From Naegleria gruberi (Eukaryota), in NCBI GenBank assembly GCA_000004985.1, contig GG738855.1: 64,000 bases of DNA; one strand, written 5' to 3'. Position 1 is the first letter of the stretch. Each line of letters opens with the position of its first letter. Shown here piece by piece: positions 13,173-38,607 of the stretch. A program made the position numbers and the translations under genes. The notes under the pieces are model-generated. The model did no database searches. It was not told where the DNA came from and was given only the letters and a program-made list of their open reading frames with translations.

Positions 13173-16100
13173 TTGAAAATGGTGCGTCAGATAAATAACT
13201 CTAAAGTATATACCAGCAATGATTCCTCCTCCTCTTCATTGTCGTCGTCATCATCATCTCTAAAGAAACTGCTCATTGCAATGTTTCAAATCCTTCTAGT
13301 ACTCTTTCTCATCACACAACACGAAGAAGTGAAAGGACAAATCTTTCCTCTGGTTGCCGAATCATCAATTTATAAGAATGCCATTATTATGCCTCCTCCT
13401 ACATCAAAGTTTGAACCTAAATTTGCTTTACAATGGGAAGAAATAACAAGTGCTTCAACAATTTCCACCAATTATTTAAATTTCCACTCCCAGTGTGCTC
13501 TAGGTACTGATAAAATTGTAAAAACATCAGATATTGACAATATCAATAATAATTTAAATAATGGGTTAAAGGTAATCAAATGGAAATTAACAGTTGGTGT
13601 GGGTAGCAATTTTCATAATGCATTGTTCGGATTTTCTGATGGTTCTGCAAATGGTTGGACTAAAATGAAGAATGTCATGTCAAACAATGCTGCCTATTCC
13701 TCTACAGTTAATGGTAAATGGAGTACTAGCAGTTCAACTACCAGTTTCAAGACAAATTTCTATTCCTCTCTTGTTTATCCACCACAGGTTTATAGATTTG
13801 ATAAGGGAGAAGTTAATACTAGACCAAATTTACAAGGATATGCTTCAATGTCATCACTCAACATGACTTTCTATGACATGTTCTCAGGATCAAAACTCTT
13901 GTATAACAATCAAGCTTTCCTATCTAGTAATAGTAAGAATGCGTTGCCATTAGTAATTTCGGGAGATCTTATTGATGCTATGTATAATTCTGATCCAAGT
14001 AATGCGACCATTGCTAAAATAGCTTCTATTCGTGAAGGTTTTAGAAATGAAGATGACCTTTCCTATCTATATGGACCTGATGGTACTAGTTCTATTGGTG
14101 GTTTTTTAAGAAGTCGTTCTCAATCTAATTGGACAGATATGTCTTCTACACCTTCTGATTTTGTTGTTCTATCCAGTTATGAGAATTATGTTTATGGTAC
14201 TGACTTTTATTTCACAACCACTAATTGCTTTAATGATTTGGTCAATAGCAATTCAACAAGTGGAAATGAATTATACTTTTTCGTTTCCCTTTTCAATTAT
14301 TACACACTTCTTAGTAGCAAGTTTAGTTCTAGAATTGACAATTCCTACAATAACAATGTCTTGAAGATGTTCCTTGCTTTTAACATGACACAATTATTGA
14401 CTACTCCAAATGGAAACAAAATGTTTCCAACCATGATGCAAAGTTCATCATCTGCTACTACTCCTTCATTCAAGGATTCTACAGCAAGATATTTCATTTC
14501 AGAATTCCATTACAATACTCTTACTACTTATCAACAATTGAGATATTTGAGAACTACTCACGTTTTCTTCTATGGTTTGATTATTATGACCATTCTCTTC
14601 ATGTTTAGAAAGCAACAACCTGTCAAGTCCAGATTTATGATCAACGCTTCTGTATGTGGTGTTGCTATTTTCTATGGTCTCTTTGGTATTATCATGGCTG
14701 CTGCAGTTCCAGATTATGACGGTATTGTAAGTGCTGCTGAAGTTTTATTCTACTTGGTCTTGGGTTTCTTATACGTCTTGTCTGCTGTTAGATATTTCTT
14801 CTCCAGAAATTTGTATAGAACTATGAGAATTAACTTCTCAAAGGAAAAGAAAAAGAAGGAAAAGAAAGATTCTGATACTTTTGAAGAAAAGCAATTGAAA
14901 TTGCTTAGATTGTTGGCTAATTTGGCTTCATGGAAAGTTTTCCTTGTTGGTGTTATTGCAGTAGTAGTTTTAATTGCTGGTCTTTCCATTTTCATTTTGG
15001 TTTCTATTTTGACTGGTGCTGCTGATAATTTCACTGTTTCAATTTCACAAGTCGCTACCTATGTCAAGTTGGCTGGTTTGTTGGGCTTGGTCTTTCCTAC
15101 TGCTATTATTTCTATCATTCTTGATGCTAGTATCAATTTTAAGAGAATCTTCAGAAAGGGTGGTCTTAAATGGTATCTCATTCAAGATGACCCTCTCTTA
15201 TTTAGAGCCGAATTTGCTGTCTTTATACCAACTGTTTGTTTGGGTGTTTTACTCTTTGGATTGGATCAATTTTACAATGGTTTACCTTGGTGGGATTTGG
15301 AGCAAAAAGCTGCCACTTATCTTGGTCACGGTTTAGTCTATACTGTATTTGAAGTTTCACTTCTCTTGTTAGGTTGTGGTGGTTTCATTGTCATTGTCCA
15401 AACAATTCAAACAGTTCGTATCGCCATCCGTAGAGGTTCACTTTTTGATAAGTCTGATACCGATGTCAGTAAATCCAAATCAGGAGGATTAGGTCTTGGT
15501 GAGAAGACTGAATTTGAACTCTTTATGGAAAGTGTTGAAGCAAGAGCCGTCTTGAAACAATATTGTGAAAGCGAATTTTCATTGGAAAATTACTTGCTTT
15601 TCGAATTGGTAGAAGATTTGCACAAACTTGTGCTCATTGAACAGACTCAAGGTGTTTTACAGGAACCTGTCGCCAAACCAAAACCAAAGCAATTATTAAC
15701 TGTTCAACATTCAAATTCTTTCAGAATGAGTGGTGATTTCAATGGGGCATCTCCTTCTGGTCTTCAACCTAACACTACCACAAATAGTGGAGCTCCAACA
15801 ACTATTACCCCAAATGGATTGTTAAATCCAGCTGATAACACTTCAATGACTACATCATTTACTTCATCTGGTTCAGAGGTTGTCTTTTTGAATAATGAAG
15901 ATCCAACTTCACCAACCAGTCCATCGACAATTTCAGAGCCATACTCTCCTTCTAAATTATCAACAAACGGACCAAACAAGGAAAAGGATAAGAATAAGGG
16001 ACCAGGTGATGTAACCCTCCAAATTGATAGAATGATTGTCAAGATTTTAAAGACATACTTGAGTGAAAACTCTGTTTTGGAAGTCAACTTACCAAACACA

Positions 16101-16382
16101 ACTCGTAAACAAGTTTTACATGCCTTCCGTAAACGTGTCTATCCAGATGACATGTCTAAGACAGGAAGTGCTTCTGGCTCAAAGAATTTTGATAAATCAC
16201 CAAGATCTCAAAGACCAGATACAGACAAGAAACCAGAATCAATTGACGTTGAAATTTTGGCAATTTTGAAACAAGATGTATGGTTGAATTTGAAAGATAC
16301 TTTTGGTAGATTGCAATTGACAAACGAATATCAATTGTTAAAGAAGAAACAAGCTTTGGAAAAGGAATTGAACGTTGTATAA
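13173..16382 (+). CDS. Receptor-like protein: signal peptide, ~460 aa ectodomain, seven TM helices and a C-terminal RGS (regulator of G-protein signalling) domain.
   Basis: The N-terminal hydrophobic LLIAMFQILLVLFLIT follows a poly-Ser tract. Seven hydrophobic helices are present (HVFFYGLIIMTILFMF, MINASVCGVAIFYGLFGIIMAAAV, VLFYLVLGFLYVLSAV, VFLVGVIAVVVLIAGLSIFILVSIL, LAGLLGLVFPTAIISIIL, FAVFIPTVCLGVLLFGL, LVYTVFEVSLLLLGCGGFIVIV). The RGS-box signature is FELFMESVEARAVLKQYCESEFSLENYLLFELVEDLHKL ... MIVKILKTYLSENSVLEVNL. Confidence 0.65.
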   Translation: MKMVRQINNSKVYTSNDSSSSSLSSSSSSLKKLLIAMFQILLVLFLITQHEEVKGQIFPLVAESSIYKNAIIMPPPTSKFEPKFALQWEEITSASTISTNYLNFHSQCALGTDKIVKTSDIDNINNNLNNGLKVIKWKLTVGVGSNFHNALFGFSDGSANGWTKMKNVMSNNAAYSSTVNGKWSTSSSTTSFKTNFYSSLVYPPQVYRFDKGEVNTRPNLQGYASMSSLNMTFYDMFSGSKLLYNNQAFLSSNSKNALPLVISGDLIDAMYNSDPSNATIAKIASIREGFRNEDDLSYLYGPDGTSSIGGFLRSRSQSNWTDMSSTPSDFVVLSSYENYVYGTDFYFTTTNCFNDLVNSNSTSGNELYFFVSLFNYYTLLSSKFSSRIDNSYNNNVLKMFLAFNMTQLLTTPNGNKMFPTMMQSSSSATTPSFKDSTARYFISEFHYNTLTTYQQLRYLRTTHVFFYGLIIMTILFMFRKQQPVKSRFMINASVCGVAIFYGLFGIIMAAAVPDYDGIVSAAEVLFYLVLGFLYVLSAVRYFFSRNLYRTMRINFSKEKKKKEKKDSDTFEEKQLKLLRLLANLASWKVFLVGVIAVVVLIAGLSIFILVSILTGAADNFTVSISQVATYVKLAGLLGLVFPTAIISIILDASINFKRIFRKGGLKWYLIQDDPLLFRAEFAVFIPTVCLGVLLFGLDQFYNGLPWWDLEQKAATYLGHGLVYTVFEVSLLLLGCGGFIVIVQTIQTVRIAIRRGSLFDKSDTDVSKSKSGGLGLGEKTEFELFMESVEARAVLKQYCESEFSLENYLLFELVEDLHKLVLIEQTQGVLQEPVAKPKPKQLLTVQHSNSFRMSGDFNGASPSGLQPNTTTNSGAPTTITPNGLLNPADNTSMTTSFTSSGSEVVFLNNEDPTSPTSPSTISEPYSPSKLSTNGPNKEKDKNKGPGDVTLQIDRMIVKILKTYLSENSVLEVNLPNTTRKQVLHAFRKRVYPDDMSKTGSASGSKNFDKSPRSQRPDTDKKPESIDVEILAILKQDVWLNLKDTFGRLQLTNEYQLLKKKQALEKELNVV

Positions 16383-16510
16383 TTTTTTGCAAATTTCATA
16401 AAGTTTCATTTTGTTAAATTTGTGTCTTAATAGTAATTAATGAAACGAATTTGGCAATTAAATAATAAATTTATTTTCAAATTACCAATTTTAAGAAATC
16501 TTTTAAAAAA

Positions 16511-17825
16511 TTATTTACAAGAATTCTTAATATAAGGTCCAGAATATTCAATAGTTGGTTGTCTCAACATTTGAGAAGTGGATCCAACAACATATAAATA
16601 ATATTCAATAAAACATTGAATCATGCTCAATGCACCACAATCCAATGGATCAACCTTGATTGAAATTTCATATTGAACTGGTCCCATACTCAATTGATCC
16701 TTTGTAACAAGGAATTGAACCCAAGGAGTGAAAGAAATTGATTTACCAGTCTCTGCAACAATATGCTTGGTCTTTTTCTCTCTAACTTGCAAGATGAAAT
16801 TCTTGGCATAGATGGCAGGAGAGGCCAAAATTGTGACATATTGAGGTTCAGCAACATTGACAGTATAAACATCAGCTTGCAATGAACCAATACTAGCAAC
16901 CATGAAACTAGTATCCAATTTACCAGCAGCAGATAATTCCATAGCTCTTGACTTGGAATAATCTTCAAAAAGTGGCCATTGAACAGTTGTTTTAGAATCC
17001 CAAGCAACTTTGAGTGAAGTTTGAATATTACCCTTGGAATCAACATAATCTCCATTATCATTCTTTTGATAATTATGAATACCCATCATACCAAGAGGAC
17101 CCAAAGGACCTAATGGACCCAAAGGACTGTAATTGTACAATTATAATTATATTGTAAAAATTTCAATATAGTTACAATATCAACTTACCCCAAAGGACCC
17201 AAAACAGACCAAACACCCAAACCTTGCATGTGCTTGGTAAGATCATTAATCAAAGGCATTACCTTATAGTAAGCATCACCCAAAGGTCCAGCATTTGAAA
17301 GTGGATTTTGAACATTGTCAGTCATTAAAAATTTAAAACTATCCAAACTTGAACTACCCATGATTTGTTTAGTAAAATCTTGCATAATTTTAACAACACC
17401 GTTAGGACTAGGAATCTCGTGTGAAAGTGGTCCCAAAGAAGCCAATGGTCTATCAAAATTAATTTTAAATTTAATTTTTAAAAATGGTCAATTCACACAC
17501 ATTTCAATAATTTAATTCCACCCGATTGTAATCCACAAAGATAAACTTACCCAGATGCACCCAAAGGACCAGCCCATCCCAAACAACTCATAGCATTAAT
17601 ATATAAATCACATGTTCCAGTAGGTCCTGGACAAACCTTTGGTGCAGGTGAAACAAAACTTCCATAAAAAGTTCCAGAAAGTGAGGCAATAGAATCGGAA
17701 GAAGTGTAACGGTAACATGTTTTAGATGCGGACAAGGGGTTTCTTGATCTTGCTTGATGACTTGGAAGTGTCAAGCAAGCTATCAATAAGAAAACTGCTA
17801 AAATGTAGACAGTGGCAGTTGACAT
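16511..17825 (-). CDS. Secreted protein with short collagen-like Gly-Pro-Leu triplet runs. Three exons (17557..17825 approximately, 17189..17460 approximately, 16511..17140) with two GTAAGT...AG introns.
   Basis: Exon 1 begins with a signal peptide MSTATVYILAVFLLIACLTLPS and ends ...LGWAGPLGASG. Exon 2 is PLASLGPLSHE...VLGPLG. Exon 3 begins SPLGPLGPLGPLGMMG and continues into a roughly 190 aa globular C-terminal domain. Both introns are AT-rich with GTAAGT donors and AG acceptors, and they fall at the GPLG repeat boundaries. Confidence 0.55.
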
Positions 17826-18096
17826 TTTTTTTTAAGATGATGTTTCAGGTTTGACATGAAGTAGCCACCTTCATTTGGAGCGATTTCCATTACAGAAATT
17901 GGTTTTTTCGCGTTTTTTCAAAGTGTGTCACCAACAACAAAGCGAATAACCCTTTCGAACAGTAAATACGAATCATTCTGTTGTAAAGTGAATTTGATTC
18001 CTCTGATGTGCACTCTCAACTGTTACCCCTGTTGTATCGAATATTAATATTGGACTATACATATTGTTTAATTATTTGTAAAGGAGTATTAAAAAA

Positions 18097-21050
18097 ATGC
18101 GAAATCTTCTCTTCATTCCATTAGCATCAAAACAAGGCACAGTTAGTGATAGTGATCAGAAGAACAATGAATTCATCATTCAATCATGTGAATGGTCGCT
18201 CTCCCTTGTAAATTATCGGAACGGAAGAGATTTGATGAAAAATCATATTGATCAAGAATTAATTCCCGAATTTACAAATGATGAAACTCTTGAGGTAAGC
18301 TTAATAAAATTTAAGTATATATGTAATGATGGTTGTATGGTGATGATGATGATGGTGGTTAGAAAAGTCAATATGAAAATATTAAATTTAATCATGATGG
18401 AATTTCAAATACGGTTCATATGATTTTGTATGATGATCATCATAACCATGATGTTGATCATCGGATTGGAAATCCATATTATAGATTTGAAGAGTTGAAA
18501 CAATTGTGGATTGGAAATTCCGATTGGAAGATGGAATGTAAGATTAAAGTAAATAGTAAGAATCAGAGAGCAATGTTTTTGGTATTTGAAGGTGTGGACA
18601 CAGTCGCAGATATCAAGATAAAAAGAAATGATAATGGACAAGTAGTTGTATTGGAAAAACAGGTAGATAATATGTTTCAATACTATGCATTGGATGTTTC
18701 TAAATGCTTGAGTGGATGTGATGAGTTTTCCATTGAGGTTTTATTGAAATCAGCTCTACAGGAATGCAGGGAACGATTGCAAAGACATTATGAAGAGGAA
18801 CAGTATGAAATTCCTTGCCCTTCCTACACTCGAGATTTCCACACAAGAGGAAGGAATTTTCTGAGAAAGGAGGGATGTTCATTTGGATGGGATTGGGCTC
18901 CTTGTTTTGCCACTTCTGGCCTTCACAGACCTTGTTACTTGGTTGTTTCATCCAATGAAGTGGAATATTCCTCTTTCATTAAGGATGTGGCTGTATTTCA
19001 GAGGGATTTTAAATTTAATAGAGTTGGATCTGTGACTTGTGAATCTCTGAATGCAAATGTAAAAGTTTACTTGCACGGAAATTATTTGAATTATCAGGAT
19101 TTGAGAAAGGATATCAATTCCATTCAATGGAAATTGCATAAGGAAGGTTTCGAATTAACTAATACAGTAACTGAATGGATGATTTCAAAAGATGAAGAGT
19201 TGGAAAATACTTTTATTATAACCTTTGCAATTGAATCTTTGAAAGATGTTGAATTGTGGTATCCTAATGGTTATGGATCTCAAGCACTGTACAATTTTGA
19301 AATAATAATTGATGGACCAAATGCTCAATCCAAATCCACCAATCTCGGATTTAGAAAAGTAGAGTTGGATACTTCTAAAGATGAATTTGGAGAGAAATTC
19401 CAATTCAAAGTAAATGAAATTCCCATCTATGCCAAGGGAAGTAACTGGATTCCTACCGACTGTTTCTCTTCACGTTCCATGAAAGGAAAAGATCACCTGG
19501 AATTCCTCTTGAAGAGTGCACACGATTGCCACATGAATTGTATGAGAGTTTGGGGAGGTGGTCAATATGAATCAGAGCATTTCTATAACTTGTGCGATAA
19601 GTATGGTATTCTGTTGTGGCATGACTTGATGTTTGCATGTTCTCTGTATCCATCTTCTCCTGAGTTTCTGGAGACTTGTCGTGTAGAGGCAGTTCAACAA
19701 TTGAGAAGATTACAGCATCATCCATGCATTGCTCTGTATGCAGGAAATAACGAGAATGAGGAAGCTCTCCTTTCTTGGCCAGAATGTATTGAATCTCCTC
19801 ACAAACAACGACTCTTTGTCGATTATCATAAGCTCTATTATGATACTCTGCATAGAGTAGTATCGAAGGAGGATAACTCGAGACCTTATTGGCCTAGCAG
19901 CCCATCGAATGGTATCATGAAGTATGGCAATCCTCAAGATCTCACTAGAGGTGACGCTCATTATTGGAGGGTGTGGCACGGAGGAAAATCATTTGATAAT
20001 TATCTCACTGTAACTCCAAGATTTAGTTCAGAATTTGGATTTCAATCATTGCCAAGTTATGAATCTTTAATTCCATTCATTAATGATCCCAACTCGCTAG
20101 ATCAATCACAAGATGCTAACATCTCCTCTCCAGTGATGGAATTCAGACAGAGAAGCTATATGGTAGGAAATAAGTGTATTTTGGAACATGTATCTAGAGA
20201 ATTTAGATTCCCAAAGAGCTTCAAAGAACTGGTGTACATTTCTCAAATCTTACAAGGTCTCTCTATCAAGACAGCATGTGAACACTGGAGAAGACAAAGC
20301 AAGATTTGTTCTGGTGTCTTGTATTGGCAATTGAATGATGCTTGGGTTGGAAACTCTTGGTCAAGTTTGGAGTGGAACGGAAAGTGGAAACTTTTACAAT
20401 ATTATGCAAGAGATTTTCTAGCACCTTCACTATTGTCTTGTGTGGAAAATAAGGAGAATGCTTGTCTGGATATTTGGTTCACTACAGATTCATTACAATC
20501 CCTGAAATTGAGCAAGTTAACAATTGAATTGATTTCCTTTGGGAATGGTACACAATTACTCAAAAAGGTAATTGATATTGAGAAGCAAGTTGCAGAAGCA
20601 TCTAGCCAAATAATTTATTCGCTAGACATTAAGGAAGTTGAAAAGAGTAGAACTAAAGGATTTTTGAAATTCAAATTGGATGTAACAGGTCAAGAATCAA
20701 TTGCCAATTACCATTTCCTGACAGAGTTGAAAAAGGCCACTCTCAACTATAGTCCTGTGCGTGTTGCATCTCTTGTGGAGGACGATACCAATACCTTTCT
20801 GGAAATGGAATTGGAATGTGGATCTACTGCACCATCGTTATTTACCTACATTGTTATTGAGAATGACAGTCAAGATACCACCTCTAAAACCTCTCTCGAA
20901 TTTGATTTGGATCATTTGAGTGATAATGGTTTCCATCTTATGCCAGGAGAAGTGAAGAAGATTACCATTCACAAGAGACCTAGTTGGAGAGGCACCTCGT
21001 CTCAATACGCACCACTCATTCATATTATGAATTTGAGAGATAGTTATTAA
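18097..21050 (+). CDS. Beta-mannosidase (glycoside hydrolase family 2), two exons: 18097..18294 and 18363..21050, separated by a 68 nt GTAAGC...TAG intron.
   Basis: NPYYRFEELKQLWIGNSDW, ILEGVDTV-like VFEGVDTVADIKI and the block KGSNWIPTDCFSSR...HMNCMRVWGGGQYESEHFYNLCDKYGILLWHDLMFACSLYP...HPCIALYAGNNENEEAL all match lysosomal beta-mannosidase (MANBA). Exon 1 is 66 codons and ends ...NDETLE, followed by a GTAAGC donor. The frame re-joins after GGTTAG. Confidence 0.8.
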
Positions 21051-21101
21051 CAGACTGTCATGTATGTACATTACAAATAAATTTAAATGAATAAATTAAA
21101 T

Positions 21102-22391
21102 TTATTCCTTTTCAGCAGCTGCTTTTTGTTGAGATTCAAACCAAATATCTGTTAAATTTTGTGAAACAAATTCAAAAACTGAAAACATGATACCAGTTGA
21201 TAGTGTCACCCACATAACTCTAGGAGTGATACCTTTGAAAAATCCTCTCCAACCATCATCTTGTTTAATCTTTCTGAACATGGCAACAAAGCCACCCTTA
21301 AATGTTGTCGAGGTTTGTAATCTAGTCTTGATGACATCAATTGGATTACTCAGTGAGGCAGCCATAGCACCTGCAGTACCACCAACAACTATCGACTCTG
21401 AAAAGGTTAATTTCTGAGCAGATTTTAAGGATTCTTGTGGGTCTTTAAGTGTTGAATTTTTCAAATCATCTCTGTATTGATCCATCTTTCTATTTAAAAT
21501 TGAATTTTTCAATACTTCATAAATTAAAAATTGAGTCATACTGTATGGAATATCTCTGACCATTGTTGCAGAATAACCTCTAAATAATCCACGAATTCCC
21601 TCACTCCTAGCAACTTGATAAAAAGTTTTAAGTGTAGATTGTGAATATTGTGCAGATGAAAGTGAATTTGTTTGAAATCTACATTTTATCAATTCAGATG
21701 GCACAAAAACCAAAGATCCCATAAACTCTGCTGAACTACCTGCCAACATGTACGCAAAATTTTTATGTTCTCTCAAGAATTCTGAATTCTCCAAAAGTAA
21801 TCTCTTCATTGATTCATAAGTTCCAAAATAGATAGCTCCTGCAGGTAAACTCCCATAAAGCGTTGGTACCCATCCTCTAAAAAGTCCTCTCCTTCCCTCA
21901 GTCTTTGCAATTGTAATAAAAGCATCCAAAGTATTCTTATAAACAAATCTATTAGAAGTTGATAAATCTCCAACAAATTGTTGTCTAGTTTTCACTGTAT
22001 CCAATGGTTGTAACAATGTATCTGAAACTATAGATGCAATAGATCCAGAAATAAAATCAATAGCACGTAATCTCTCTCTCTTGGTTGTTGATTGTAAATT
22101 ACTTAATTCCTTATCATCTTGTTCATCTAAATCCGATTGTTCTTGTTGTTGAATCATGTAGGGATGAGGTGGAAGAAATGCATGATGTTGAGCATGATGA
22201 TGATGTGGATTATTTGAATTATTAGGATTATTAGGATTTGATAATAATGAATTATTATTAATATTATTTGTAATATTCATATTATTAATATTATTAATAT
22301 TATTATTGGTAGTGGTGGAGGAGGAGGTATTAGGAGAAGAGGAAGGAGAAGATAATTGGGAATTTGTGGTGGTCATTGGAGAATTAGGCAC
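21102..22391 (-). CDS. Mitochondrial carrier family (SLC25) protein with an N-terminal poly-N/His low-complexity extension.
   Basis: Three carrier signature repeats, PLDTVKTRQQ, VPSELIKCRFQ and NPIDVIKTRLQ (Px[DE]xx[KR]), each preceded by a hydrophobic helix. The roughly 110 aa N-terminus is NNNINNINNMN...HHHHAQHH. Confidence 0.75.
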   Translation of the reverse strand: MPNSPMTTTNSQLSSPSSSPNTSSSTTTNNNINNINNMNITNNINNNSLLSNPNNPNNSNNPHHHHAQHHAFLPPHPYMIQQQEQSDLDEQDDKELSNLQSTTKRERLRAIDFISGSIASIVSDTLLQPLDTVKTRQQFVGDLSTSNRFVYKNTLDAFITIAKTEGRRGLFRGWVPTLYGSLPAGAIYFGTYESMKRLLLENSEFLREHKNFAYMLAGSSAEFMGSLVFVPSELIKCRFQTNSLSSAQYSQSTLKTFYQVARSEGIRGLFRGYSATMVRDIPYSMTQFLIYEVLKNSILNRKMDQYRDDLKNSTLKDPQESLKSAQKLTFSESIVVGGTAGAMAASLSNPIDVIKTRLQTSTTFKGGFVAMFRKIKQDDGWRGFFKGITPRVMWVTLSTGIMFSVFEFVSQNLTDIWFESQQKAAAEKE

Positions 22392-22817
22392 TAAAGATGA
22401 TAATTTAGAATTTAATATAATATTTAAATTAAATGATGATGTAATAGATAGTATAATAATATTATATCAATGATTATTATAAATTATATATTGTTATTAT
22501 TATATGAAACTCTATTCGGGACGACGGCTTTTACTTTCGGAGGAGTTTTTTCCTCTTTTTTTGGATTCAATGAAAATAACGACTCGAAATTCACACACTC
22601 TCTAGAAAGAGATTGGAATTGATTGGGTTAGAGGGAGAAACAGAAGGTGAATAGATAATGGAAGAAATTAATAATGAATGTATGAATATATATTGAATGA
22701 ATGTGTTAAACTTTATTGTCGGATGGAGTTTCATAGAGGGATGATGATGAGGAATCAACAATTCCCATGGCAGTAGCATCTTCTTGAGTTGAATTGGAGT
22801 TTTGATGATGATTTTCA

Positions 22818-25800
22818 TCAAGTATTTGAATGCTCTGGGAAGAACCAATGTTGTTGGTAGTGTAGTGGCTGTGTGGTGGTGATATTGGAATTGTTTGTTG
22901 TTGGAATGGTATTAAGCTCAGTGTCCTTATCATTATCTGCTGCTGGAGTGACAACAATGATTGGAGTGCCACCTGGTGAGGTGTTATGGAGTGGTGTTGG
23001 AGTGGTTGGAGTTTGAGAGGGTTGGACTGTGTGTCCATTGATGTGACCATGACCATTTAAGGTTGTAGATGGTGGAATAGTTGCTAAATTACTATTCGAG
23101 GATTTGGTAAGGGCCTTTGCTTTTTGAATGGCCTGAAGTGAAACTGAATTCTTCTTAACAATCTCAAACCATTCCTTATATTCGGCAGTGAGCTGGAGAC
23201 GACGGAAGGTATCTCTCAAATTCTTCACAACCTCTGAAATGACAATATCCAAATCATTGACAAAATATTCGCTCTTGAGATAGTCATCAGTGAAGAAATC
23301 CTTGGCAGCCCACTTGTTGAAAATAGTCTTAGAAAAACTTGACAAATTGACAGTCATTGGAGCATTATCAGGAATGTATGTGTTGTAAATGTTTTCTCTG
23401 AGTTCTGTTGTGGCCTTGGCAATTTCTTCCTCTGTTAAATTTTGTTTCAATAGTGGACGATAGAATGGGCGATCTGAGGATGGTGATTTACCAGTTATGG
23501 ATCTAGGACGAGCTACAGCCATGAATAATTGAGTATAGACCTTTTCCATATCACTGATAAATGCAAGATTTTCAATGGAGAATTCAGTTTTAGCGTATTG
23601 TCTAATGAGTTCAAATCCCTTCTCATCAATGAATAATCTGGCCAATTCATCTCCCAACAAGTCAAGATATGGAGAGTTTCTAATTGTTCTAAATTTGATA
23701 ATTTCACCTGCATCAAGTTCAATACTTGTTTCTTTAAGGTTATCATCATTGTGATCGGCATATCTATCGAACAAAAATCCAATTCCTTCAGCACACTGAT
23801 TACTCAAACGAATTCTCTCATAGAGTGTCATGAGACAAATGAATCCACCACCAGAGGCCATCAGTTCCAAAAAGATGGCGATCAATTCAAGTGGCAATGC
23901 AACAAATGTGGCCAAAATGACAGAAGGAGCATAGGTATTGGAGAGGAGAACGACCATATCGTCAGTTCTGGACATGGCAATGGATCTAACCACACCCATA
24001 GAAACATAAAAGACAATTGAAATGATGTGAACAAGCATTTCCAATCTATAGTAGAGTCTGTCATTTCTCACAAAGTATGCCTTCAATTTACAGCCTAATA
24101 TGAGTTTCTTATTGGCCACTATATCAATACTAAAGGCAACAATTACCAAGAAGACTGCAAATGCAACCAATAAGCCACCAATTGCTTGAATGGCAATCAA
24201 AACATTCGGAGCTGGAACAGTAAAAAGGAGAGGAATAATGATCGAGTAGATAATAATCAAGACAATAGCCATAAAGGTTACTGTGAAAATCTTGACCTTC
24301 TTGGATCTAGCCCAACGGAATGTTAACTGCTTAGCTTTTTCTGAAGTATTGAGTGAGCTGGCATCGGATCCCTTTCTCTCTCCAATTGGTTTGTCATTAG
24401 ACCCTGAACTTGAAGGAGAGTTATTGAGTTGAGCAAGGGATGAAGATCCACTTGATTGATTCTTCCTCTCAAATGATTCACGTTTCAGTTTGTTGTACAT
24501 TTCAGCATAGACCTTTCTCTTATAAAAGAAGAAGAGAGTATTCATAAAATAGATCAGATAAGATCCACTGAGTAAACCAAATGTTATGAATGTAAATATC
24601 ATGAGCAAGTATTCTTCTCCCCAAAACGATTGCAACAAAACTCTACAAAAATTAATAACAACCTGGAAGAGTACAAGGTATGGCAAATATCCTCTCGAAG
24701 CTCTAGGTTCAGTTTTCCTGAAATAAATTAAAAAGAAGAGAATAATCAATCCAGTGATTCCATTCACAACTACAACCAATGTAGAGATGGCATAGTTGGC
24801 ACTGACAACTCTTCTCTGCATGGTCAGTGTTGGATCTTCAAGATCAGAATTTAGGGAAACAGTATCTTCAAAAAATACATTGCTATCTCCAAAGATTACA
24901 TTCGTTGGAAGTGGAAATTGAACTTGAGAATTTTTAGAAGCATAAACCTTGAATTCGAATTGAGTTCCCAAATTCGAAACCAATAATTCACTTAGCGTTG
25001 GAACACTTTCAACCCTATCACCCTCATCCATTGGATGTTCCAATGCAGAACGAAGTAAATCCTCCAATTTCGCCTGCACAGTAAACTCAGTACCAAAGAA
25101 TGCCTTTCTTATTCTCACCGGTTTAATATAGACATAGTCAGTGAGTGGATTTTTCATTTGTGGTTCATTAATAATAATACCATCATTCATTCCAATATTT
25201 GTTGTGGAATTGATAACCAATTGCTGACCTACGAGGGCAATTCTTCTGACCTCTCCTGCCTCAACATTGACTGTACTACTATCTTCAGCAATACCTCTAA
25301 TACCTCTACTATTATTATTAGTATTATTATCATTATTAGATGTATTATTCATGGTGAGAGAAGTAGAAGTAGATGATTCTGTCGTATTAAAATCAATATC
25401 TGTAAATAATTCAAAATAGAGTGGAGCCAATCGAGGTTGATAAGCCATTGCCCACAAATTAGTTTCATAAAAAGTCGAATTATTAATGATATTGATGGAC
25501 AATCCAAAGAGTGTTTGTCTCAGAATGTTGGCTGTAACTGTAATCATTGTAACTTCAATGCTGGTTGGACAATCAACGATGGTACCTGCTGGAGTGGTCC
25601 TTTTTTGCATATCCGTGAGTGAACCTAATAGTTTCCAATTTCCGTAAACATTTGGAAGAAACTTGTATTCGTGGCTTGAGGTGAGTTTGTTGTATGTTTC
25701 TATTGGCATTCGACAATTACTCGCAAAATTGGTCAGTGGAGAAGCCTGTATTATTATTGTTTGATGCCATACTATTAAAAGAAGAAGAAGAAATAATGAT

Positions 25801-25847
25801 GATGAAAATGTATTCGAAATGTTTCGAACAAAATTATGCCTGCTCAT
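22818..25847 (-). CDS. Second receptor-like signal-peptide / ectodomain / 7TM / RGS-domain protein, with the same architecture as 13173..16382.
   Basis: The N-terminal signal is FSSSLFLLLLLIVWHQTIIIQASP. Seven hydrophobic helices follow (LVVVVNGITGLIILFFLIY ... VILATFVALPLELIAIFLELMA). The C-terminal RGS-box is FELIRQYAKTEFSIENLAFISDMEKVYTQLF ... LRENIYNTYIPDNAPMTVNL. The tail is Thr/Pro/Asn-rich. Confidence 0.6.
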   Translation of the reverse strand: MSRHNFVRNISNTFSSSLFLLLLLIVWHQTIIIQASPLTNFASNCRMPIETYNKLTSSHEYKFLPNVYGNWKLLGSLTDMQKRTTPAGTIVDCPTSIEVTMITVTANILRQTLFGLSINIINNSTFYETNLWAMAYQPRLAPLYFELFTDIDFNTTESSTSTSLTMNNTSNNDNNTNNNSRGIRGIAEDSSTVNVEAGEVRRIALVGQQLVINSTTNIGMNDGIIINEPQMKNPLTDYVYIKPVRIRKAFFGTEFTVQAKLEDLLRSALEHPMDEGDRVESVPTLSELLVSNLGTQFEFKVYASKNSQVQFPLPTNVIFGDSNVFFEDTVSLNSDLEDPTLTMQRRVVSANYAISTLVVVVNGITGLIILFFLIYFRKTEPRASRGYLPYLVLFQVVINFCRVLLQSFWGEEYLLMIFTFITFGLLSGSYLIYFMNTLFFFYKRKVYAEMYNKLKRESFERKNQSSGSSSLAQLNNSPSSSGSNDKPIGERKGSDASSLNTSEKAKQLTFRWARSKKVKIFTVTFMAIVLIIIYSIIIPLLFTVPAPNVLIAIQAIGGLLVAFAVFLVIVAFSIDIVANKKLILGCKLKAYFVRNDRLYYRLEMLVHIISIVFYVSMGVVRSIAMSRTDDMVVLLSNTYAPSVILATFVALPLELIAIFLELMASGGGFICLMTLYERIRLSNQCAEGIGFLFDRYADHNDDNLKETSIELDAGEIIKFRTIRNSPYLDLLGDELARLFIDEKGFELIRQYAKTEFSIENLAFISDMEKVYTQLFMAVARPRSITGKSPSSDRPFYRPLLKQNLTEEEIAKATTELRENIYNTYIPDNAPMTVNLSSFSKTIFNKWAAKDFFTDDYLKSEYFVNDLDIVISEVVKNLRDTFRRLQLTAEYKEWFEIVKKNSVSLQAIQKAKALTKSSNSNLATIPPSTTLNGHGHINGHTVQPSQTPTTPTPLHNTSPGGTPIIVVTPAADNDKDTELNTIPTTNNSNITTTQPLHYQQHWFFPEHSNT

Positions 25848-26563: not shown

Positions 26564-27244
26564 TTAAACATTACAAGTATACTTGAAATCAGAATATCTC
26601 TCACATCTCAACAAACCAGTACTGCTGCCATAATATCCTCCAACAGGTTTCTTACAACCAGAATCCTTATAAGTAGTGGTTGTAAAATAGGAATTAGTAC
26701 AAGTGGTAGTTGAGTATTCACCAGAGAATGAATTTGCAACTGGACCACATGAATTAATTCGTTGACCCTTAGCACTGACAACATTAATTGGAGCAAGTTT
26801 ATCAACATCACAACTGGAAGCATAATCACCCCATGGATAGCTGAGTCTCCACAACATGTCATCTGGAATATCAATAACCAATGGTCCACAAGCTGTCAAG
26901 GTAGATTCAGTGGCAGTGTTAACACATCCCTTAACTTTGACATTTCTAGTGGAATCACATCTTCCACATCCCTTAGTACAGAGTGATTGGACTATTCCAT
27001 AATCACCATTACAAACTGAGTTTGACCAACCATACTTTTCCCTGTAACACATACTGGTAGCATGGAACAATTCGACAGTATTCAAATCTTTAATGAGACA
27101 GCCAGGACGAAGGAATTTATAGATCTGAACAAAGTTTCCCTTTCTATTGACTGGAACAGCCAATGAAAAGCTGCTCAAACAAATAATGCAACAGAGGAGA
27201 GCAAGGAGAGAAATTGCCTTGTGGATGCTATTGGAGGTGAACAT
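26564..27244 (-). CDS. Small secreted cysteine-rich protein. Family unknown.
   Basis: 226 aa with an N-terminal signal peptide (AISLLALLCCIICLSSFSLAVPV) and more than 20 Cys in the mature part (CTKGCGRCDSTRNVKVKGCVN...CGPVANSF...CTNSY...CKKP...CERYSDFKYTCNV). Confidence 0.45.
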   Translation of the reverse strand: MFTSNSIHKAISLLALLCCIICLSSFSLAVPVNRKGNFVQIYKFLRPGCLIKDLNTVELFHATSMCYREKYGWSNSVCNGDYGIVQSLCTKGCGRCDSTRNVKVKGCVNTATESTLTACGPLVIDIPDDMLWRLSYPWGDYASSCDVDKLAPINVVSAKGQRINSCGPVANSFSGEYSTTTCTNSYFTTTTYKDSGCKKPVGGYYGSSTGLLRCERYSDFKYTCNV

Positions 27245-31460: not shown

Positions 31461-34400
31461 ATGGAACAACCCGAATGTTCCATCCCGACCTCAGCTACAA
31501 CAATTCAACAGTTACCGAGACCACCATCGGTTATGGACGATGATGAGGATATAGAGTTTGAGGTTTTTAATGTACCTAAAAAAACAAGTAATGAAAATTT
31601 AGGGACATTTAATGATAATAACAATATATCGGAACAAGTAATAGTGGATAGGATACCTAGGAGTAATAGTAAAAGTTCATATTCTTCTTCACAACCTCCT
31701 GTGGATGGTGTTGCTGACGATGTTGAAAATGAGGATCAAATTGAAATTGAAACAACAGGAAGCAGTACCGGGAGTCATGCAAGTACGATTAAATATGAAA
31801 ATGATAAACATGCACAAGTAATGGCTCACAGTGAGCAACAATTCATGACTGCCTCAGCAACAATTATAAAAACAAATGAATTCGATCATTTATTCGAACA
31901 TTCGGCTCGAGAAACGGAAAAGGAAAGAAAAAAAAAAGACAGAAGAATTATTGGACATTTAGTGAGGAAGAGAGTTGAAAATTTTTTAAAGATATTTGAT
32001 GCATATGGTGAAGGGATTGATGGTCCTCAAATCCGAAGAAAGACAGTGATGGGGTCTTTCGTCTCTGTAATTATGAGGTTTATTGTAATAGTATTAATTG
32101 CTTGGAAAATGTATAAGGTATTGAGTATGACTAGGTCTGAAGATATTGGCGATATAATATCTATAAATTATAATAGATCTGGATCAATGTATTTTATGGA
32201 TATTCCAACATTACAAATGAATGTCTCGAGTAAGATTTTGTTTTTTGAGAGGGCTGAGGACGGTCCTTCGTTACAGAGGATTGACATCATTGATATGTAT
32301 GGATTGGAAAAGACATTTTCAACATTGAGTCCAAGTGAGAGTTTTACTCTGCGGAAACCCTTAACGAAATCAATTTTTGGAAATGCTAATATTGGATTGA
32401 ATTCTTTTTTTCCTAGAAATAGAGATGCTGAAACAGGATTTGACTCGGTGAATACTTTTTCAACAAAAACGTCTACAGTTTCTTCAATTCTGGATCCTGC
32501 TGAGGCATTATATATTCAATCAAATCAGGATAAGGATTTTATTGAGCATACAGTTCATTTATATTTGAGATTTTTGGATAATTTGAGAGGAATCAAACCT
32601 TGTCAACTTCAGATTGGAATGATAAACTCTGGTATTCTTGCGCTATTGGAAGATGTTGATGAGTATGGAAATATAATTTTTGAACATCAATTACAGTCAC
32701 ACGAGGATGTTTATTTTGCAACTGATTCTTCCACTTGGGCAATGTCAAATATTATCCCTAATGAGACAGAGAGAGCTTCTCCTAAAGTACTGAGTGAAGG
32801 CATTTCCAATAGCCAATTTTACCTCACAACAAACTTTACAACATCGAACTTGGTTTCCTTTCTTCAGAAAAAATCAGTCAATGGAAATTTGAGAAATATT
32901 GCCCAGATATTTCTCGATAGAGGGATATCTTTGCCTCTCTTTAACGAATGGACCTTTATAATTAATTACATGAACAACTTTGTATATACTAGTAACAAGC
33001 TTATTTGTGACGATTACGAGCAAGATATAGATGAAAGCTCTCAAACCAACCCTAGGTTAATTCTCAATAACTCCTTCATTCGAAAAAAATTATTTCCAAC
33101 AGATGTCAGAATTATTTCCAATAATTTGGGAGAGAATGATACTACTGTATTGGGATTTGTTAAAGGTGATTTATCACAACAGCCACCATTCTACATGATT
33201 ATTGCAGGATTTTCAGGACATTCAGAGGTTGTAACTGTTTCAAGTATGGAAATAACTCAAGGTAATAATAACACAGATGATTATAGAGCTGTGTTATTCA
33301 ATGTTGAAAGATCCACATCAATTCCATTTGCAGATGTTGATATTTATGCACCTGATGATTTTCAAGAGCAGGTAGCAAATTATCAAACACTAACTAATTT
33401 ACCAAAAGCTTTACCAATCAATTGGATACAACAAGGTTTGTGGAAGTGCTCCCCCGAAAAGTATGGAGATGGTTTTTGTGATTGCGACTGTGGCTTTGTC
33501 AACGATACACTCACAGTAAGGGACATTGATTGCAATACTATACTTCCGAACCTTTTCAACTCTGAAAATCCAATCTCTAAATTATCCAAAGTATCATGTA
33601 CCTCTAAGGGATTACTGTGCTCAAATAGTGGCCAGTGCATTTCACCTTCTTTCATCCAAGGTAGTAAACCATGCCTGTATAAGGCATCAACATTTGGACA
33701 AAAGAAGGTAACAGGATTTTTTGGAACAACAAACGATTTTTACAAATCTGGTGGAGGAAAATACTGCTCTGAATGTGAAGGTTACAATATCAATAATGAA
33801 CAATCTACATACAGCAGCCACAACTCGAGATTTATGTGCCAAGTTGCCCCAAAAGGATATGTTTTTGGCATTGATTATTTGAAGAAAATAGAGTCTGATA
33901 CAAGTATTTGTTTTCCAATAAGAACCAAAGTAGGAGAAATGCCATTCCCTACCATTATTTCCCAATTTGAAGAACTTGCGATGGTGTCAATTAATCGGGG
34001 CATGAAAACAAAATTAATGAACGTTTCTGAAACAAGTTCAATTAACAGTGCCAAATATTTAAGCTCAAAGAATGAATTGTTTGGTTCTTCAGCTTTTAAT
34101 ATCCAAACCATTTGCATAGGAAAAGACCATGAGAAGTTAGCATCTTTCGGAAGAGTTGTCTCCTACAACCCCTTCTCTAAATCCCTAATAGTTTCAAAGG
34201 AATTTGGATTGGAATTTTCTCAACGGATAATACCCAGCTCTGTTCAATTTTATGTTGGAAAAACATTTTCAGAAGATGTGGTACTTGACAAGATAAATCA
34301 ACAACCTCTCATGGTTCAAATTGAAAGTCTGGTAGATATGGGAAATTACCAACATTTGACATTGCAGAAGGCTGTTGACATCTCTATGAATTTGTACACC

Positions 34401-36597: not shown

Positions 36598-38607
36598 ATG
36601 TCGGTTAGGACATCAATAACCGAGCCCAATTTCCATGACAATTTCATTACAACTCTAAATGATTCATCATCATCTTCAAGTCGTCCAGCCACAACAACAA
36701 GTATAGATTTATTCATGAGAGGAGAACCAATTCTTGTAGATTTGCTTTTACATCATGATGAGGATATTTGTCTGCAGGATATTGACGATCATCAGTCGGC
36801 GATGGATAAAGAAATGTCGACAATTACGAATAATCTTCCTCATCAACAACAACATATTATCGGTCAACAACACGAATTATCATCATCACCTGTTGTTGCT
36901 ATTACTTGTACTCCTCCACTACTAACTAATTTAGACATGACATTCAATTATGACAAAACTGATAATCAGCAGCAGCAACAAGAAGTAAATACAACTAATA
37001 GTAATAATATTGTATTTAATAATGATATAGTAATTGTGGAAGATTCTAATAGCAATAATAATAATAATAATAATAATCGAATGAACATGGTGAATATTGT
37101 TGATGGTAGTTCTATTATATTAAATAATACACCTCAACTCTTTATTGAAACAAAACAAGATAATTCTAAAGGGTTAGTTCTACCTTTAAATTTATCTAAT
37201 GATAATTCTCCAGTCAATTCAGAGATTTCATCGGCTGTGAGTGTGACCTCCTATGGGTCAAGTCTTCCATCGACTCCAAATAATTCCCATCAATCTTCAA
37301 GCTTTTTCAATTCATCAACAACAATGGTAACCAATGATGAAACTGATTGGGAAATTATTGTAAAGAATAGAAATGCTCAACAAATAGCACGTATGGCCTC
37401 TGCTACTGGTTTAGTATTTCATAATAATCTATCCTCCTCACCATCAACTACTTCATCTTTATCGTCTTCAAATCTATCAAATCAACATCATCACTGTGTT
37501 ACCACTCCAAAATTGGATACATCTTCTTTAAATGAAACATCATTCAGAAAGAACTTTATCACTCGACATAGTTCTGATCAGAGAATTGCAATCTCTAGTA
37601 ATAATAGTAGTGGTAGTACATGTAATGAAGAGTCCACATTTGGTACTGGGTCAAGCAAGCAGAGAAGCAAGACAAGTTTTTTGTGGGGAAGATCTTTAGA
37701 GAGGAAGAATTCTGCAAACAGCAATACTTGTATGCCTCCAATAGAGGATTCTAAGAATGCTCAACTCGATATTTCGGCCTCTTCAATAGAGAGTAGTGCC
37801 ACCAATGTTGCATCAGATGAGAGCTTTTTAGAGTTTTTACAGAGTGTAGATTGTCGAATGAATGTTATTTCGATAGAGTCAATTGATTCTGCCTCTACAC
37901 AAGACACATCATCCAAAGAGACTTTGAAAAAGTCCAAATTTTGGGATAGACTCAAGATTATCAAAAAGGCAATTAAGAAACAGCTTATGGAAGAAGAAAA
38001 ACCTAACAGCACCCAACAAACACTTCACACTCAACAACCATCTAAACACTCGAGAACCAATAGTATTACAAGTAATCCACATACACTTGATTTGGATTGT
38101 AAAAGTACATCATCTTCCTCTCTGACAAGCGTTAGTGATGAAGACAAGTATACGGTTGTTATTACTAAACCAGCAATAGTCTCTAATAGTGCAATTAGAT
38201 CTGCTGAGGATGAAATGAGACATTGTCTTAATGATCCAATTTGTTTACAATTATTTGATGAATTTTGTTGTCAGGAATGCTCTCAAGAGAATTTACTTCT
38301 TTGGAAGGAGCTCAATAAGGTCAAGACTAATTTCAAGAAACTTTCAGATAAGAGAAGAAGCAAAACCCTTCGAACCATTCACTCGAAATTCTTCTCTGAG
38401 AAGAATGAAAATTTCGATGTAAATGTTAGTGGTCGAACTAAAGTTCAAATAGAGGAACAAGCAAATAGCAAGAGAGTTAGTTTAGCATCTGGCGCACACG
38501 TTTTAAATAGCTTACAACGAGATTGTATCAACAATTTATGTGACAGCTTTTCGAGGTTTATTCTCACTGAGGATTACAAACTATGGAAACAAAACTTTGA
38601 TAGGTAA
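36598..38607 (+). CDS. Ser/Asn-rich protein with a C-terminal RGS domain.
   Basis: Continuous 669 aa ORF with long poly-N/poly-S/Q tracts. The C-terminal RGS box is PICLQLFDEFCCQECSQENLLLWKELNKVK ... LRTIHSKFFSEKNENFDVNVSGRTK. Confidence 0.55.
   Translation: MSVRTSITEPNFHDNFITTLNDSSSSSSRPATTTSIDLFMRGEPILVDLLLHHDEDICLQDIDDHQSAMDKEMSTITNNLPHQQQHIIGQQHELSSSPVVAITCTPPLLTNLDMTFNYDKTDNQQQQQEVNTTNSNNIVFNNDIVIVEDSNSNNNNNNNNRMNMVNIVDGSSIILNNTPQLFIETKQDNSKGLVLPLNLSNDNSPVNSEISSAVSVTSYGSSLPSTPNNSHQSSSFFNSSTTMVTNDETDWEIIVKNRNAQQIARMASATGLVFHNNLSSSPSTTSSLSSSNLSNQHHHCVTTPKLDTSSLNETSFRKNFITRHSSDQRIAISSNNSSGSTCNEESTFGTGSSKQRSKTSFLWGRSLERKNSANSNTCMPPIEDSKNAQLDISASSIESSATNVASDESFLEFLQSVDCRMNVISIESIDSASTQDTSSKETLKKSKFWDRLKIIKKAIKKQLMEEEKPNSTQQTLHTQQPSKHSRTNSITSNPHTLDLDCKSTSSSSLTSVSDEDKYTVVITKPAIVSNSAIRSAEDEMRHCLNDPICLQLFDEFCCQECSQENLLLWKELNKVKTNFKKLSDKRRSKTLRTIHSKFFSEKNENFDVNVSGRTKVQIEEQANSKRVSLASGAHVLNSLQRDCINNLCDSFSRFILTEDYKLWKQNFDR
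37054..37077. repeat. (AAT)n microsatellite encoding poly-Asn inside the 36598 CDS.
   Basis: aataataataataataataataat, read directly from the sequence. Confidence 0.9.

What the first reader, a model, noticed from the sequence alone, without database searches (positions are those of the whole stretch)
13173..25847. Two paralogous signal-peptide / large-ectodomain / 7TM / C-terminal RGS-box receptors on opposite strands, plus a third RGS-box gene 11 kb away
Both 13173–16382 (+) and 22818–25847 (−) encode a predicted secretory signal, an N-terminal extracellular domain of about 450 aa, seven hydrophobic helices and then a recognisable RGS box: FELFMESVEARAVLKQYCESEFSLENYLLFELVEDLHKL with a downstream ...YLSENSVLEVNL, and FELIRQYAKTEFSIENLAFISDMEKV with a downstream ...IYNTYIPDNAPMTVNL. 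A 7TM–RGS fusion is the architecture of plant AtRGS1, a receptor-like GAP for G-alpha, and is rare elsewhere. Here it additionally carries a big ectodomain, suggesting ligand-regulated GAP activity. A third gene (36598–38607) has an RGS box at its C-terminus (LQLFDEFCCQECSQENLLLWKELNKVK ... FFSEKNENFDVNV) after a long S/N-rich region. So three RGS-box genes occur in about 25 kb.
Basis: partly seen in the sequence, partly recalled or inferred. Interest (0 to 1): 0.55.

Follow-up and report, generated by a model that had tools for sequence, protein, structure and literature searches.

The report
Naegleria membrane receptors fused to RGS
The window is Naegleria gruberi DNA, and the two flagged genes really do encode receptor-like proteins with seven membrane helices and a built-in G-protein "off-switch" (RGS) domain, but this design is already known to be common in Naegleria, so the finding is correct and ordinary.

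Summary
The window is Naegleria gruberi.

- **Gene A** (13179-16382 +) is NAEGRDRAFT_78910, 1067 aa.
- **Gene B** (22818-25847 -) is 1009 aa. The public model is cut short to 930 aa and lacks the signal peptide.
- **Architecture of A and B:** each has an N-terminal hydrophobic leader, a glycosylation-sequon-rich ectodomain, seven TM helices with positive-inside topology, and a cytosolic RGS domain. The ectodomain is about 405 aa in A and about 310 aa in B, not 450.
- **RGS evidence for A and B:** low-complexity inserts split the RGS boxes, so the raw Pfam scores fall below threshold (17.8 and 22.6 bits; cutoff 23.9). With the inserts removed, both pass at about 30.5 bits. A family profile hits only RGS structures in the PDB (best E = 6e-8). 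The B model superposes on RGS4 at 1.9 Å. All key RGS4 contact residues for G-alpha are conserved.
- **Gene C** (36598-38607 +) is a soluble RGS protein (40.3 bits).
- **Relationship of A and B:** they are homologous only across the 7TM and RGS parts (23% identity; hhalign probability 98.9%). Their ectodomains are unrelated orphans.

N. fowleri has 28 7TM-RGS proteins, many with large ectodomains, and GAP activity has been shown for three of them. N. gruberi has 229 RGS genes. Verdict: new, uncharacterised members of a known kind. Interest is low.

The parts
13179..16382 (+). Gene A, NAEGRDRAFT_78910 (1067 aa): 7TM-RGS protein with an orphan ectodomain
   Evidence: The uninterrupted ORF is identical to the public protein.
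13266..13316 (+). A: hydrophobic leader (residues 30-46), either a signal peptide or a signal anchor, preceded by KK
   Evidence: Hydropathy peak of 2.19; sequence shown.
13332..14546 (+). A: extracellular domain, about 405 aa (residues 52-456). Rich in S, T and N, with 7 N-x-S/T sequons in the N-terminal region (residues 1-458), 2 Cys and no known domain
   Evidence: Composition and sequons. No Pfam hit, no PDB hit, no homologue found, and no similarity to B's ectodomain.
14553..15407 (+). A: seven-TM domain (residues 459-743), including the conserved TM5-ICL3-TM6 motif D..N.K...(4-5 aa).K.Y....D...FR.E and GGF in TM7
   Evidence: Hydropathy and positive-inside counts. hhalign against the B family gives 98.9% probability. 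Family alignment.
15513..16346 (+). A: RGS domain (residues 779-1056), split by a low-complexity insert of about 100 aa (after helix 4) and a second insert of about 30 aa
   Evidence: Pfam scores 17.8 bits on the raw protein and 30.4 bits with inserts removed. Local HMM shows three segments. Contact residues are conserved.
22818..25847 (-). Gene B (1009-aa ORF; the public model is 930 aa starting at Met80): 7TM-RGS protein
25743..25847 (-). B: signal peptide region (residues 1-35), missing from the public gene model
   Evidence: Hydropathy. The leader aligns with that of orthologue P0003.
24804..25742 (-). B: extracellular domain, about 310 aa (residues 36-348), with 9 N-x-S/T sequons in the N-terminal region (residues 1-351), 2 Cys and no known domain. 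It is conserved in orthologues from N. lovaniensis and N. fowleri
   Evidence: The profile finds nothing in the PDB and there is no Pfam hit.
23853..24794 (-). B: seven-TM domain (residues 352-665), with an 81-aa basic ICL2 and the conserved ICL3 motif
23163..23651 (-). B: RGS domain (residues 733-895), with an insert of about 45 aa
36598..38607 (+). Gene C, NAEGRDRAFT_64846 (669 aa): soluble protein with an S/N/T-rich N-terminal 540 aa and a C-terminal RGS domain
   Evidence: No TM peaks.
38221..38580 (+). C: RGS domain (residues 542-661)
   Evidence: Pfam scores 40.3 bits, E = 4.6e-10. RGS10 in the PDB matches at E = 6.4e-6.

Best explanation
A and B are two divergent members of the expanded Naegleria family of seven-transmembrane RGS proteins.

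Proposed layout (inferred from sequence and models):
- The N-terminal leader puts a glycosylated, family-specific ectodomain outside the cell.
- A GPCR-fold seven-helix bundle spans the membrane.
- The C-terminal RGS domain sits in the cytosol next to membrane-bound G-alpha.

Proposed mechanism (inferred by analogy):
- The RGS domain accelerates GTP hydrolysis on G-alpha, switching it off.
- An extracellular cue acting on the ectodomain or 7TM bundle would relieve or relocate the GAP, as proposed for AtRGS1 and the N. fowleri 7TM RGS proteins.

C is an ordinary soluble RGS protein.

The three genes lie close together mainly because N. gruberi carries about 229 RGS genes, not because they form a functional unit.
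For: - Organism and gene identities.
- Seven TM helices with positive-inside topology.
- G-alpha contact residues of RGS4 (E83, S85, E87, N88, N128, D163, S164 as S or T, R167) are conserved in A, B and C. The RGS4 numbering was checked against 1agr_E. The same columns are invariant across the family.
- Homology of A and B.
- Literature: N. fowleri has 28 7TM RGS proteins. Nf 7TM RGS2-4 are GAPs for Nf G-alpha, including the self-activating G-alpha5 and G-alpha7 (PMC9283941).
Against: - No biochemical data exist for A, B or C.
- The raw Pfam scores of A and B are below the gathering threshold.
- The RGS boxes carry large inserts (over 100 aa in A) whose effect on folding or GAP activity is unknown.
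- RGS4 Leu159 is replaced by Asn in all three proteins.
- The ectodomains match no known ligand-binding fold, and the models there have low confidence. Ligand regulation is therefore pure inference.
- The AF2 model of the 7TM region has only moderate confidence (mean pLDDT 66.6) and shows no preference for any GPCR class.
- The N. fowleri proteins tested biochemically are much larger, different family members.
Confidence: 0.85

Rival explanations
1. The 7TM bundle is only a membrane anchor. A and B would be constitutive, membrane-tethered GAPs controlled by abundance or trafficking, for example by endocytosis as in AtRGS1. The ectodomain would serve adhesion or a structural role rather than ligand sensing.
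For: - No ligand-binding domain is recognisable in either ectodomain.
- The ectodomains of A and B are unrelated even though the 7TM-RGS core is conserved.
- The long basic, Ser-rich ICL2 and the RGS inserts look like phosphoregulatory or trafficking segments.
Against: - B's ectodomain is conserved across three Naegleria species, which argues for a specific function.
- The strongly conserved TM5-ICL3-TM6 motif lies where GPCRs transmit conformational change.
- The literature favours a receptor-like role (PMC9283941).
Confidence: 0.25
2. The RGS boxes of A and B are degenerate, non-catalytic RGS-homology modules, comparable to those of GRK, axin or SNX. They would scaffold or bind G-alpha as an effector without GAP activity.
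For: - Full-length Pfam scores are below threshold.
- Large inserts interrupt the domain.
- Leu159 of RGS4 is replaced by Asn.
Against: - All the residues recalled here as switch-contacting in RGS4, including Asn128, are conserved and are invariant family-wide.
- Superposition on RGS4 gives 1.9 Å rmsd at 24% identity.
- The inserts fall between helices, not within them.
Confidence: 0.12
3. The three RGS genes form a functional or recently duplicated gene cluster.
For: Three RGS genes lie within 25.4 kb. About 0.14 would be expected from 229 genes (PMC5784254) in a genome of about 41 Mb (genome size from my own knowledge of the genome paper). The Poisson probability of three or more in a given window is about 4.5e-4 (own calculation).
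Against: - With about 1,600 such windows in the genome, about 0.7 cases are expected by chance.
- A and B are only 23% identical, lie on opposite strands, and are separated by a GH2 glycosidase, a mitochondrial carrier and other genes.
- C lacks the TM domain entirely.
- At least one other N. gruberi member of this 7TM-RGS family, NAEGRDRAFT_71988, lies on a different scaffold.
Confidence: 0.08

Closest known systems
Naegleria fowleri 7TM RGS proteins (28 genes; Nf 7TM RGS1-4 studied, PMC9283941)
   Same: - Same genus and the same order of parts: N-terminal extracellular region, 7TM, C-terminal RGS.
- B has N. fowleri orthologues or paralogues (P0004; P0006 = FDP41_005195), all annotated only as RGS domain-containing or hypothetical.
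- Canonical G-alpha contact residues are present.
   Different: - The four N. fowleri proteins that were studied are far larger, with RGS domains at residues 1036-2459. They carry EGF-like, lectin and GPS modules.
- A and B have no GPS, EGF or lectin match and only 2 Cys in the ectodomain.
- A and B have never been tested.
Arabidopsis AtRGS1 (plant 7TM-RGS, a GAP for the self-activating GPA1)
   Same: The overall 7TM plus cytosolic RGS-box architecture is shared, and so is the presumed logic of a receptor-like GAP acting on G-alpha.
   Different: - AtRGS1 has essentially no ectodomain (my own knowledge). A and B have 300-400 aa outside the membrane.
- No sequence relationship of the 7TM parts was detectable. 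An exhaustive phmmer search with B returned only 13 proteins. The named ones are Naegleria proteins, the rest are unnamed environmental sequences, and none carries a plant annotation.
- Common origin versus convergence was not resolved.
R4-type RGS domains (RGS4, RGS8, RGS16; Pfam PF00615)
   Same: - The E83/S85/E87/N88/N128/D163/S164/R167 contact set is conserved.
   Different: - Long low-complexity inserts lie between helices.
- Asn replaces Leu159.
- The domain is fused to a 7TM domain.
GPCR 7TM fold (classes A, B, C, F, T, Ste2)
   Different: - No sequence-level membership of any GPCR family was found. There is no Pfam 7tm hit for A or B, and the 7TM profile finds no GPCR in the PDB.
- Only one distant relative (P0010) gives a sub-threshold 7tm_3 hit.

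Membership tests
RGS domain superfamily (Pfam PF00615) | Significant match to the RGS sequence profile | tested here: met
   C scores 40.3 bits. A and B score 17.8 and 22.6 bits as full-length proteins, below the 23.9 cutoff, but 30.4 and 30.7 bits once the inter-helix inserts are excised. The family profile finds 34 PDB chains, all RGS proteins, best E = 6.2e-8.
RGS domain superfamily (Pfam PF00615) | All-helical RGS fold | tested here: met
   [not shown]
RGS domain superfamily (Pfam PF00615) | Conserved G-alpha switch-contact residues, including the Asn128 equivalent | tested here: met
   E83, S85, E87, N88, N128, D163, S164 (as S or T) and R167 are conserved in A, B and C. L159 is replaced by Asn. 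The numbering was verified. The identity of the contact set comes from my own knowledge of the RGS4-Gi-alpha1 structure.
RGS domain superfamily (Pfam PF00615) | GTPase-accelerating activity on a G-alpha subunit | not testable with these tools
   This needs recombinant protein and GTPase or SPR assays of the kind reported in PMC9283941.
7TM-RGS receptor-like GAPs (AtRGS1 / Naegleria 7TM RGS architecture) | Seven transmembrane helices N-terminal to the RGS box in a single polypeptide | tested here: met
   Hydropathy shows seven segments in A and in B. The AF2 model of B shows seven long helices. Both are single uninterrupted ORFs. No dedicated TM predictor was available.
7TM-RGS receptor-like GAPs (AtRGS1 / Naegleria 7TM RGS architecture) | N-out / C-in topology that places the RGS domain in the cytosol | tested here: met
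   K+R counts in the cytosolic loops are 2/13/5 (A) and 4/17/7 (B), against 0/0/1 in the external loops. The N-terminal regions carry 7 and 9 N-x-S/T sequons. This is inferred from sequence rules only.
7TM-RGS receptor-like GAPs (AtRGS1 / Naegleria 7TM RGS architecture) | Homology of the 7TM domain to other 7TM-RGS proteins | tested here: met
   A matches the B family by hhalign at 98.9% probability. Further 7TM-RGS relatives (P0007-P0010, P0014) share the ICL3 and TM7 motifs. Homology to AtRGS1 itself was not tested, because its sequence could not be fetched.
Adhesion-GPCR-like 7TM RGS (GPS/GAIN-bearing subset described in N. fowleri) | GPS motif or GAIN domain immediately before TM1 | tested here: not met
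   A and B give no Pfam GPS hit. Each ectodomain has only two Cys, and there is no C..W..C..C.HLT pattern before TM1. A genuine GPS motif does occur elsewhere in the window, at 63332-64000 (-).
Established GPCR classes (Pfam 7tm_1/2/3, Frizzled, cAR/Dicty_CAR etc.) | Sequence-profile match to a class-specific 7TM family | tested here: not met
   A, B and the family's 7TM segments give no such Pfam hit. The 7TM profile against the PDB returns only a spurious ORM2 loop match. Fold-level similarity to all classes is about equal.

The most novel reading that the evidence does not exclude
A, B and their few relatives (N. gruberi NAEGRDRAFT_71988, N. fowleri FDP41_005195, N. lovaniensis C9374_010641 and a handful of environmental protist sequences) may form a distinct 7TM-RGS subfamily. 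It would be defined by the invariant TM5-ICL3-TM6 motif D..N.K...(4-5 aa).K.Y....D...FR.E and by the TM7 GG(G)F motif. Its Cys-poor, mutually unrelated ectodomains would be new ligand-binding folds. The conserved cytosolic motif could be the element that couples the 7TM state to the fused RGS domain or to G-alpha.
Probability: 0.3. Interest if true: 0.4.

Novelty: new member of a known kind. Interest (0 to 1): 0.2.

Why it matters
7TM-RGS proteins are the proposed "inverse receptors" of organisms whose G-alpha subunits activate themselves. In these organisms, signalling is gated by a receptor-linked GAP rather than by a receptor GEF. Naegleria has the largest known expansion of this system, and the pathogen N. 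fowleri makes it medically relevant.

The genes here add only modestly to that picture:
- They show a subfamily with orphan ectodomains that lack GPS, EGF and lectin modules.
- They show a conserved ICL3 motif that may be worth mutating.
- They yield a corrected N-terminus, with its signal peptide, for one N. gruberi gene model.

None of this changes the established view.

Tried and rejected
- **Full-length AF2 model of B** (4-sequence alignment). Mean pLDDT was 38.6 and the ectodomain was uninterpretable. Only the RGS part could be used.
- **Word-indexed homologue search with A.** It found only A itself. Repeating the search with the B-family alignment added nothing.
- **Exhaustive phmmer search with B.** It gave only 13 hits, so the family is narrow.
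- **7TM profile against the PDB.** The only match was a spurious ORM2 hit in the low-complexity loop. Pfam on the 7TM segments gave nothing above threshold.
- **Ectodomain searches against the PDB.** The B-family profile and A as a single sequence both gave no hit better than E = 0.09.
- **Single-sequence phmmer of the A and B RGS boxes against the PDB.** The results were not significant (E about 0.1). Significance needed the family profile.
- **afdb50 fold library.** It was not installed, so no structural comparison with AtRGS1 or other AlphaFold models was possible.
- **Key papers.** Anantharaman et al. 2011 and Bradford et al. 2013 are not held.
- **GPS/GAIN idea for A and B.** Rejected.
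- **Recent tandem duplication idea.** Rejected.
- **Scan of other window ORFs for hidden RGS boxes.** None found.


Full report
**What is there**

The window has about 34% G+C and is densely packed with long, mostly uninterrupted ORFs. ORF B is 100% identical to a Naegleria gruberi 'predicted protein', and ORF A is identical to NAEGRDRAFT_78910.

**Gene models**

- Gene A starts at the ATG at 13179. The TTG at 13173 is only how the ORF lister reports it. Its 1067-aa product equals the public model.
- Gene B is a 1009-aa ORF, but the public model (930 aa) begins at Met80, and the full-length sequence is not in the protein collection. The extra 79 residues contain the hydrophobic leader and a motif (NC..LT.SH.YKF.PN.YG.W). 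That motif is conserved in the N. lovaniensis and N. fowleri relatives and in a metagenomic relative. The upstream ATG at 25847 is therefore the better start, and the public model lacks its signal peptide.
- Gene C equals NAEGRDRAFT_64846.

**Membrane architecture**

- Hydropathy gives a leader plus seven TM segments in both A (459-743) and B (352-665).
- K+R counts fit the positive-inside rule. The cytosolic loops have 2/13/5 (A) and 4/17/7 (B), against 0/0/1 for the external loops in both. The N-terminal regions carry 7 and 9 N-x-S/T sequons.
- This places the N-terminal domain outside the cell and the RGS domain in the cytosol.
- The ectodomains are about 405 aa (A) and about 310 aa (B), not about 450 for both.
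- A's hydrophobic core lies behind a 29-residue Ser-rich N-region ending in KK. It could be a signal anchor instead of a cleaved signal peptide. Either way the ectodomain ends up outside.
- C has no TM segment.

**RGS domains**

- Against Pfam PF00615, the full-length proteins score 17.8 bits (A) and 22.6 bits (B), both under the 23.9 cutoff. C scores 40.3 bits.
- The reason is that low-complexity inserts split the box. A has one of about 100 aa and one of about 30 aa; B has one of about 45 aa.
- With the inserts removed, the scores are 30.4 and 30.7 bits (E about 5e-7), so both pass.
- A profile of the A/B family's RGS segments finds 34 PDB chains at E <= 0.01, every one an RGS protein, best E = 6.2e-8.
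- I aligned the three domains to RGS4, after checking the RGS4 numbering against 1agr_E. The G-alpha switch-contact residues E83, S85, E87, N88, N128, D163, S164 (as S or T) and R167 are conserved in A, B and C. Only L159 differs, being Asn.
- The same columns are the invariant ones across the family. By sequence, then, the domains look GAP-competent. Activity itself is inferred.

**The 7TM domain**

- No Pfam GPCR family matches A or B.
- The 7TM profile finds nothing real in the PDB.
- It is therefore a GPCR-fold bundle of no recognisable class.

**Relationship of A and B**

- BLASTP aligns the whole 7TM region and the start of the RGS box collinearly (23% identity over 447 aa, E = 1e-8).
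- hhalign of the B family against A gives 98.9% probability (E = 3.8e-17) over TM4-TM7.
- The shared signature is a cytosolic TM5-ICL3-TM6 motif, D..N.K...(4-5 aa).K.Y....D...FR.E, plus GG(G)F in TM7.
- The ectodomains are unrelated to each other and to anything in Pfam or the PDB. Each has only two Cys and no GPS motif.
- An exhaustive phmmer search with B over 1.84 billion representative proteins returned only 13 proteins. These were Naegleria orthologues and paralogues, including another N. gruberi gene on a different scaffold, plus a few environmental 7TM-RGS sequences.
- A and B lie on opposite strands and are separated by several genes, among them a GH2 glycosidase and a mitochondrial carrier. 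They are ancient paralogues, not a local duplication.

**Comparison with what is known**

- The architecture is published for this genus. N. fowleri encodes 28 7TM RGS proteins plus 79 other RGS proteins.
- The RGS domains of Nf 7TM RGS2-4 are GAPs for Nf G-alpha subunits, including self-activating ones (PMC9283941).
- Those tested proteins are much larger than A and B.
- 7TM-RGS proteins are also reported across many bikonts and some opisthokont protists (PMC3971589).
- N. gruberi has 229 RGS genes and more than 30 G-alpha subunits (PMC5784254; 44 according to PMC8584482).
- With 229 genes in a genome of about 41 Mb (genome size from my own knowledge), a 25.4-kb span expects 0.14 RGS genes. 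The probability of three or more is about 4.5e-4 per window. That means about 0.7 such windows genome-wide by chance, so the clustering is not compelling.

**Mechanism**

- Shown here from sequence and models: the leader, ectodomain, 7TM and RGS order; the topology; the RGS fold; and the conserved contact residues.
- Inferred by analogy with AtRGS1 and the N. fowleri work: the cytosolic RGS domain deactivates membrane-bound, possibly self-activating, G-alpha. Extracellular input through the ectodomain or 7TM bundle modulates that GAP.
- The main rivals are a constitutive tethered GAP regulated by trafficking and a non-catalytic RGS-homology scaffold. Neither is excluded, but the conserved contact residues make the scaffold idea less likely.

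**Verdict**

These are uncharacterised members of a known, highly expanded Naegleria family. The useful by-products are a corrected N-terminus for gene B and the definition of a narrow subfamily with orphan ectodomains and a conserved ICL3 motif.

Noticed in passing
window 25611-25847 (-): The public N. gruberi gene model for B (930 aa) starts at Met80 of the ORF. The upstream 79 codons encode the signal peptide and a motif conserved in orthologues, so the database model appears to be cut short at the N-terminus.
   Followed up: yes
window 63332-64000 (-), running off the right edge: A C-terminal gene fragment carries a bona fide GPS motif (Pfam PF01825, 23.5 bits; C..W..C..C.HLTSFAV). The motif is followed by a single TM helix, a short basic tail and a stop codon. 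This is a GPS plus 1-TM protein, not a 7TM protein and not an RGS protein.
   Followed up: partly
window 57946-62890 (-): Three collinear minus-strand ORFs look like one large membrane-bound nucleotidyl cyclase gene split by introns or frameshifts. The first is a multi-TM segment of at least 7 hydrophobic peaks plus TmcB-type TPR repeats (60593-62890). The second is a TM-containing middle piece (59456-60478). The third carries a PAS domain and an adenylate/guanylate cyclase catalytic domain (57949-59124).
   Followed up: partly
window 37-2019 (+): This ORF combines RCC1-like beta-propeller repeats with C-terminal EGF-like (teneurin-type) repeats, which is an unusual pairing of domains.
   Followed up: no
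window 9706-12342 (+) and 31461-36041 (+): Two long ORFs (878 aa and 1526 aa) have no Pfam match. The first is acidic, S/E/K-rich and has no TM segment. The second has a few hydrophobic peaks.
   Followed up: no
window 26564-27244 (-): A small Cys-rich ORF (17 Cys in 226 aa) has an N-terminal signal-like leader and no Pfam match. It lies immediately upstream of gene B's start (25847) on the same strand.
   Followed up: no
A residues 820-948 and 990-1022 (window about 15636-16022 and 16146-16244); B ICL2, residues 437-517 (window about 24297-24539): Long S/T/P/N-rich low-complexity inserts lie inside the RGS box of A and in intracellular loop 2 of the B family. Their length varies greatly between orthologues, from about 80 to over 250 aa. 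They could be regulatory or phosphorylation regions.
   Followed up: partly
P0010 (environmental 7TM-RGS relative, Logan assembly): One distant family member gives a sub-threshold match to the class C GPCR family 7tm_3 (22.2 bits, E = 1.3e-4, cutoff 33.5) over TM1-TM3. This is a weak hint about the origin of the 7TM domain that could not be confirmed.
   Followed up: partly
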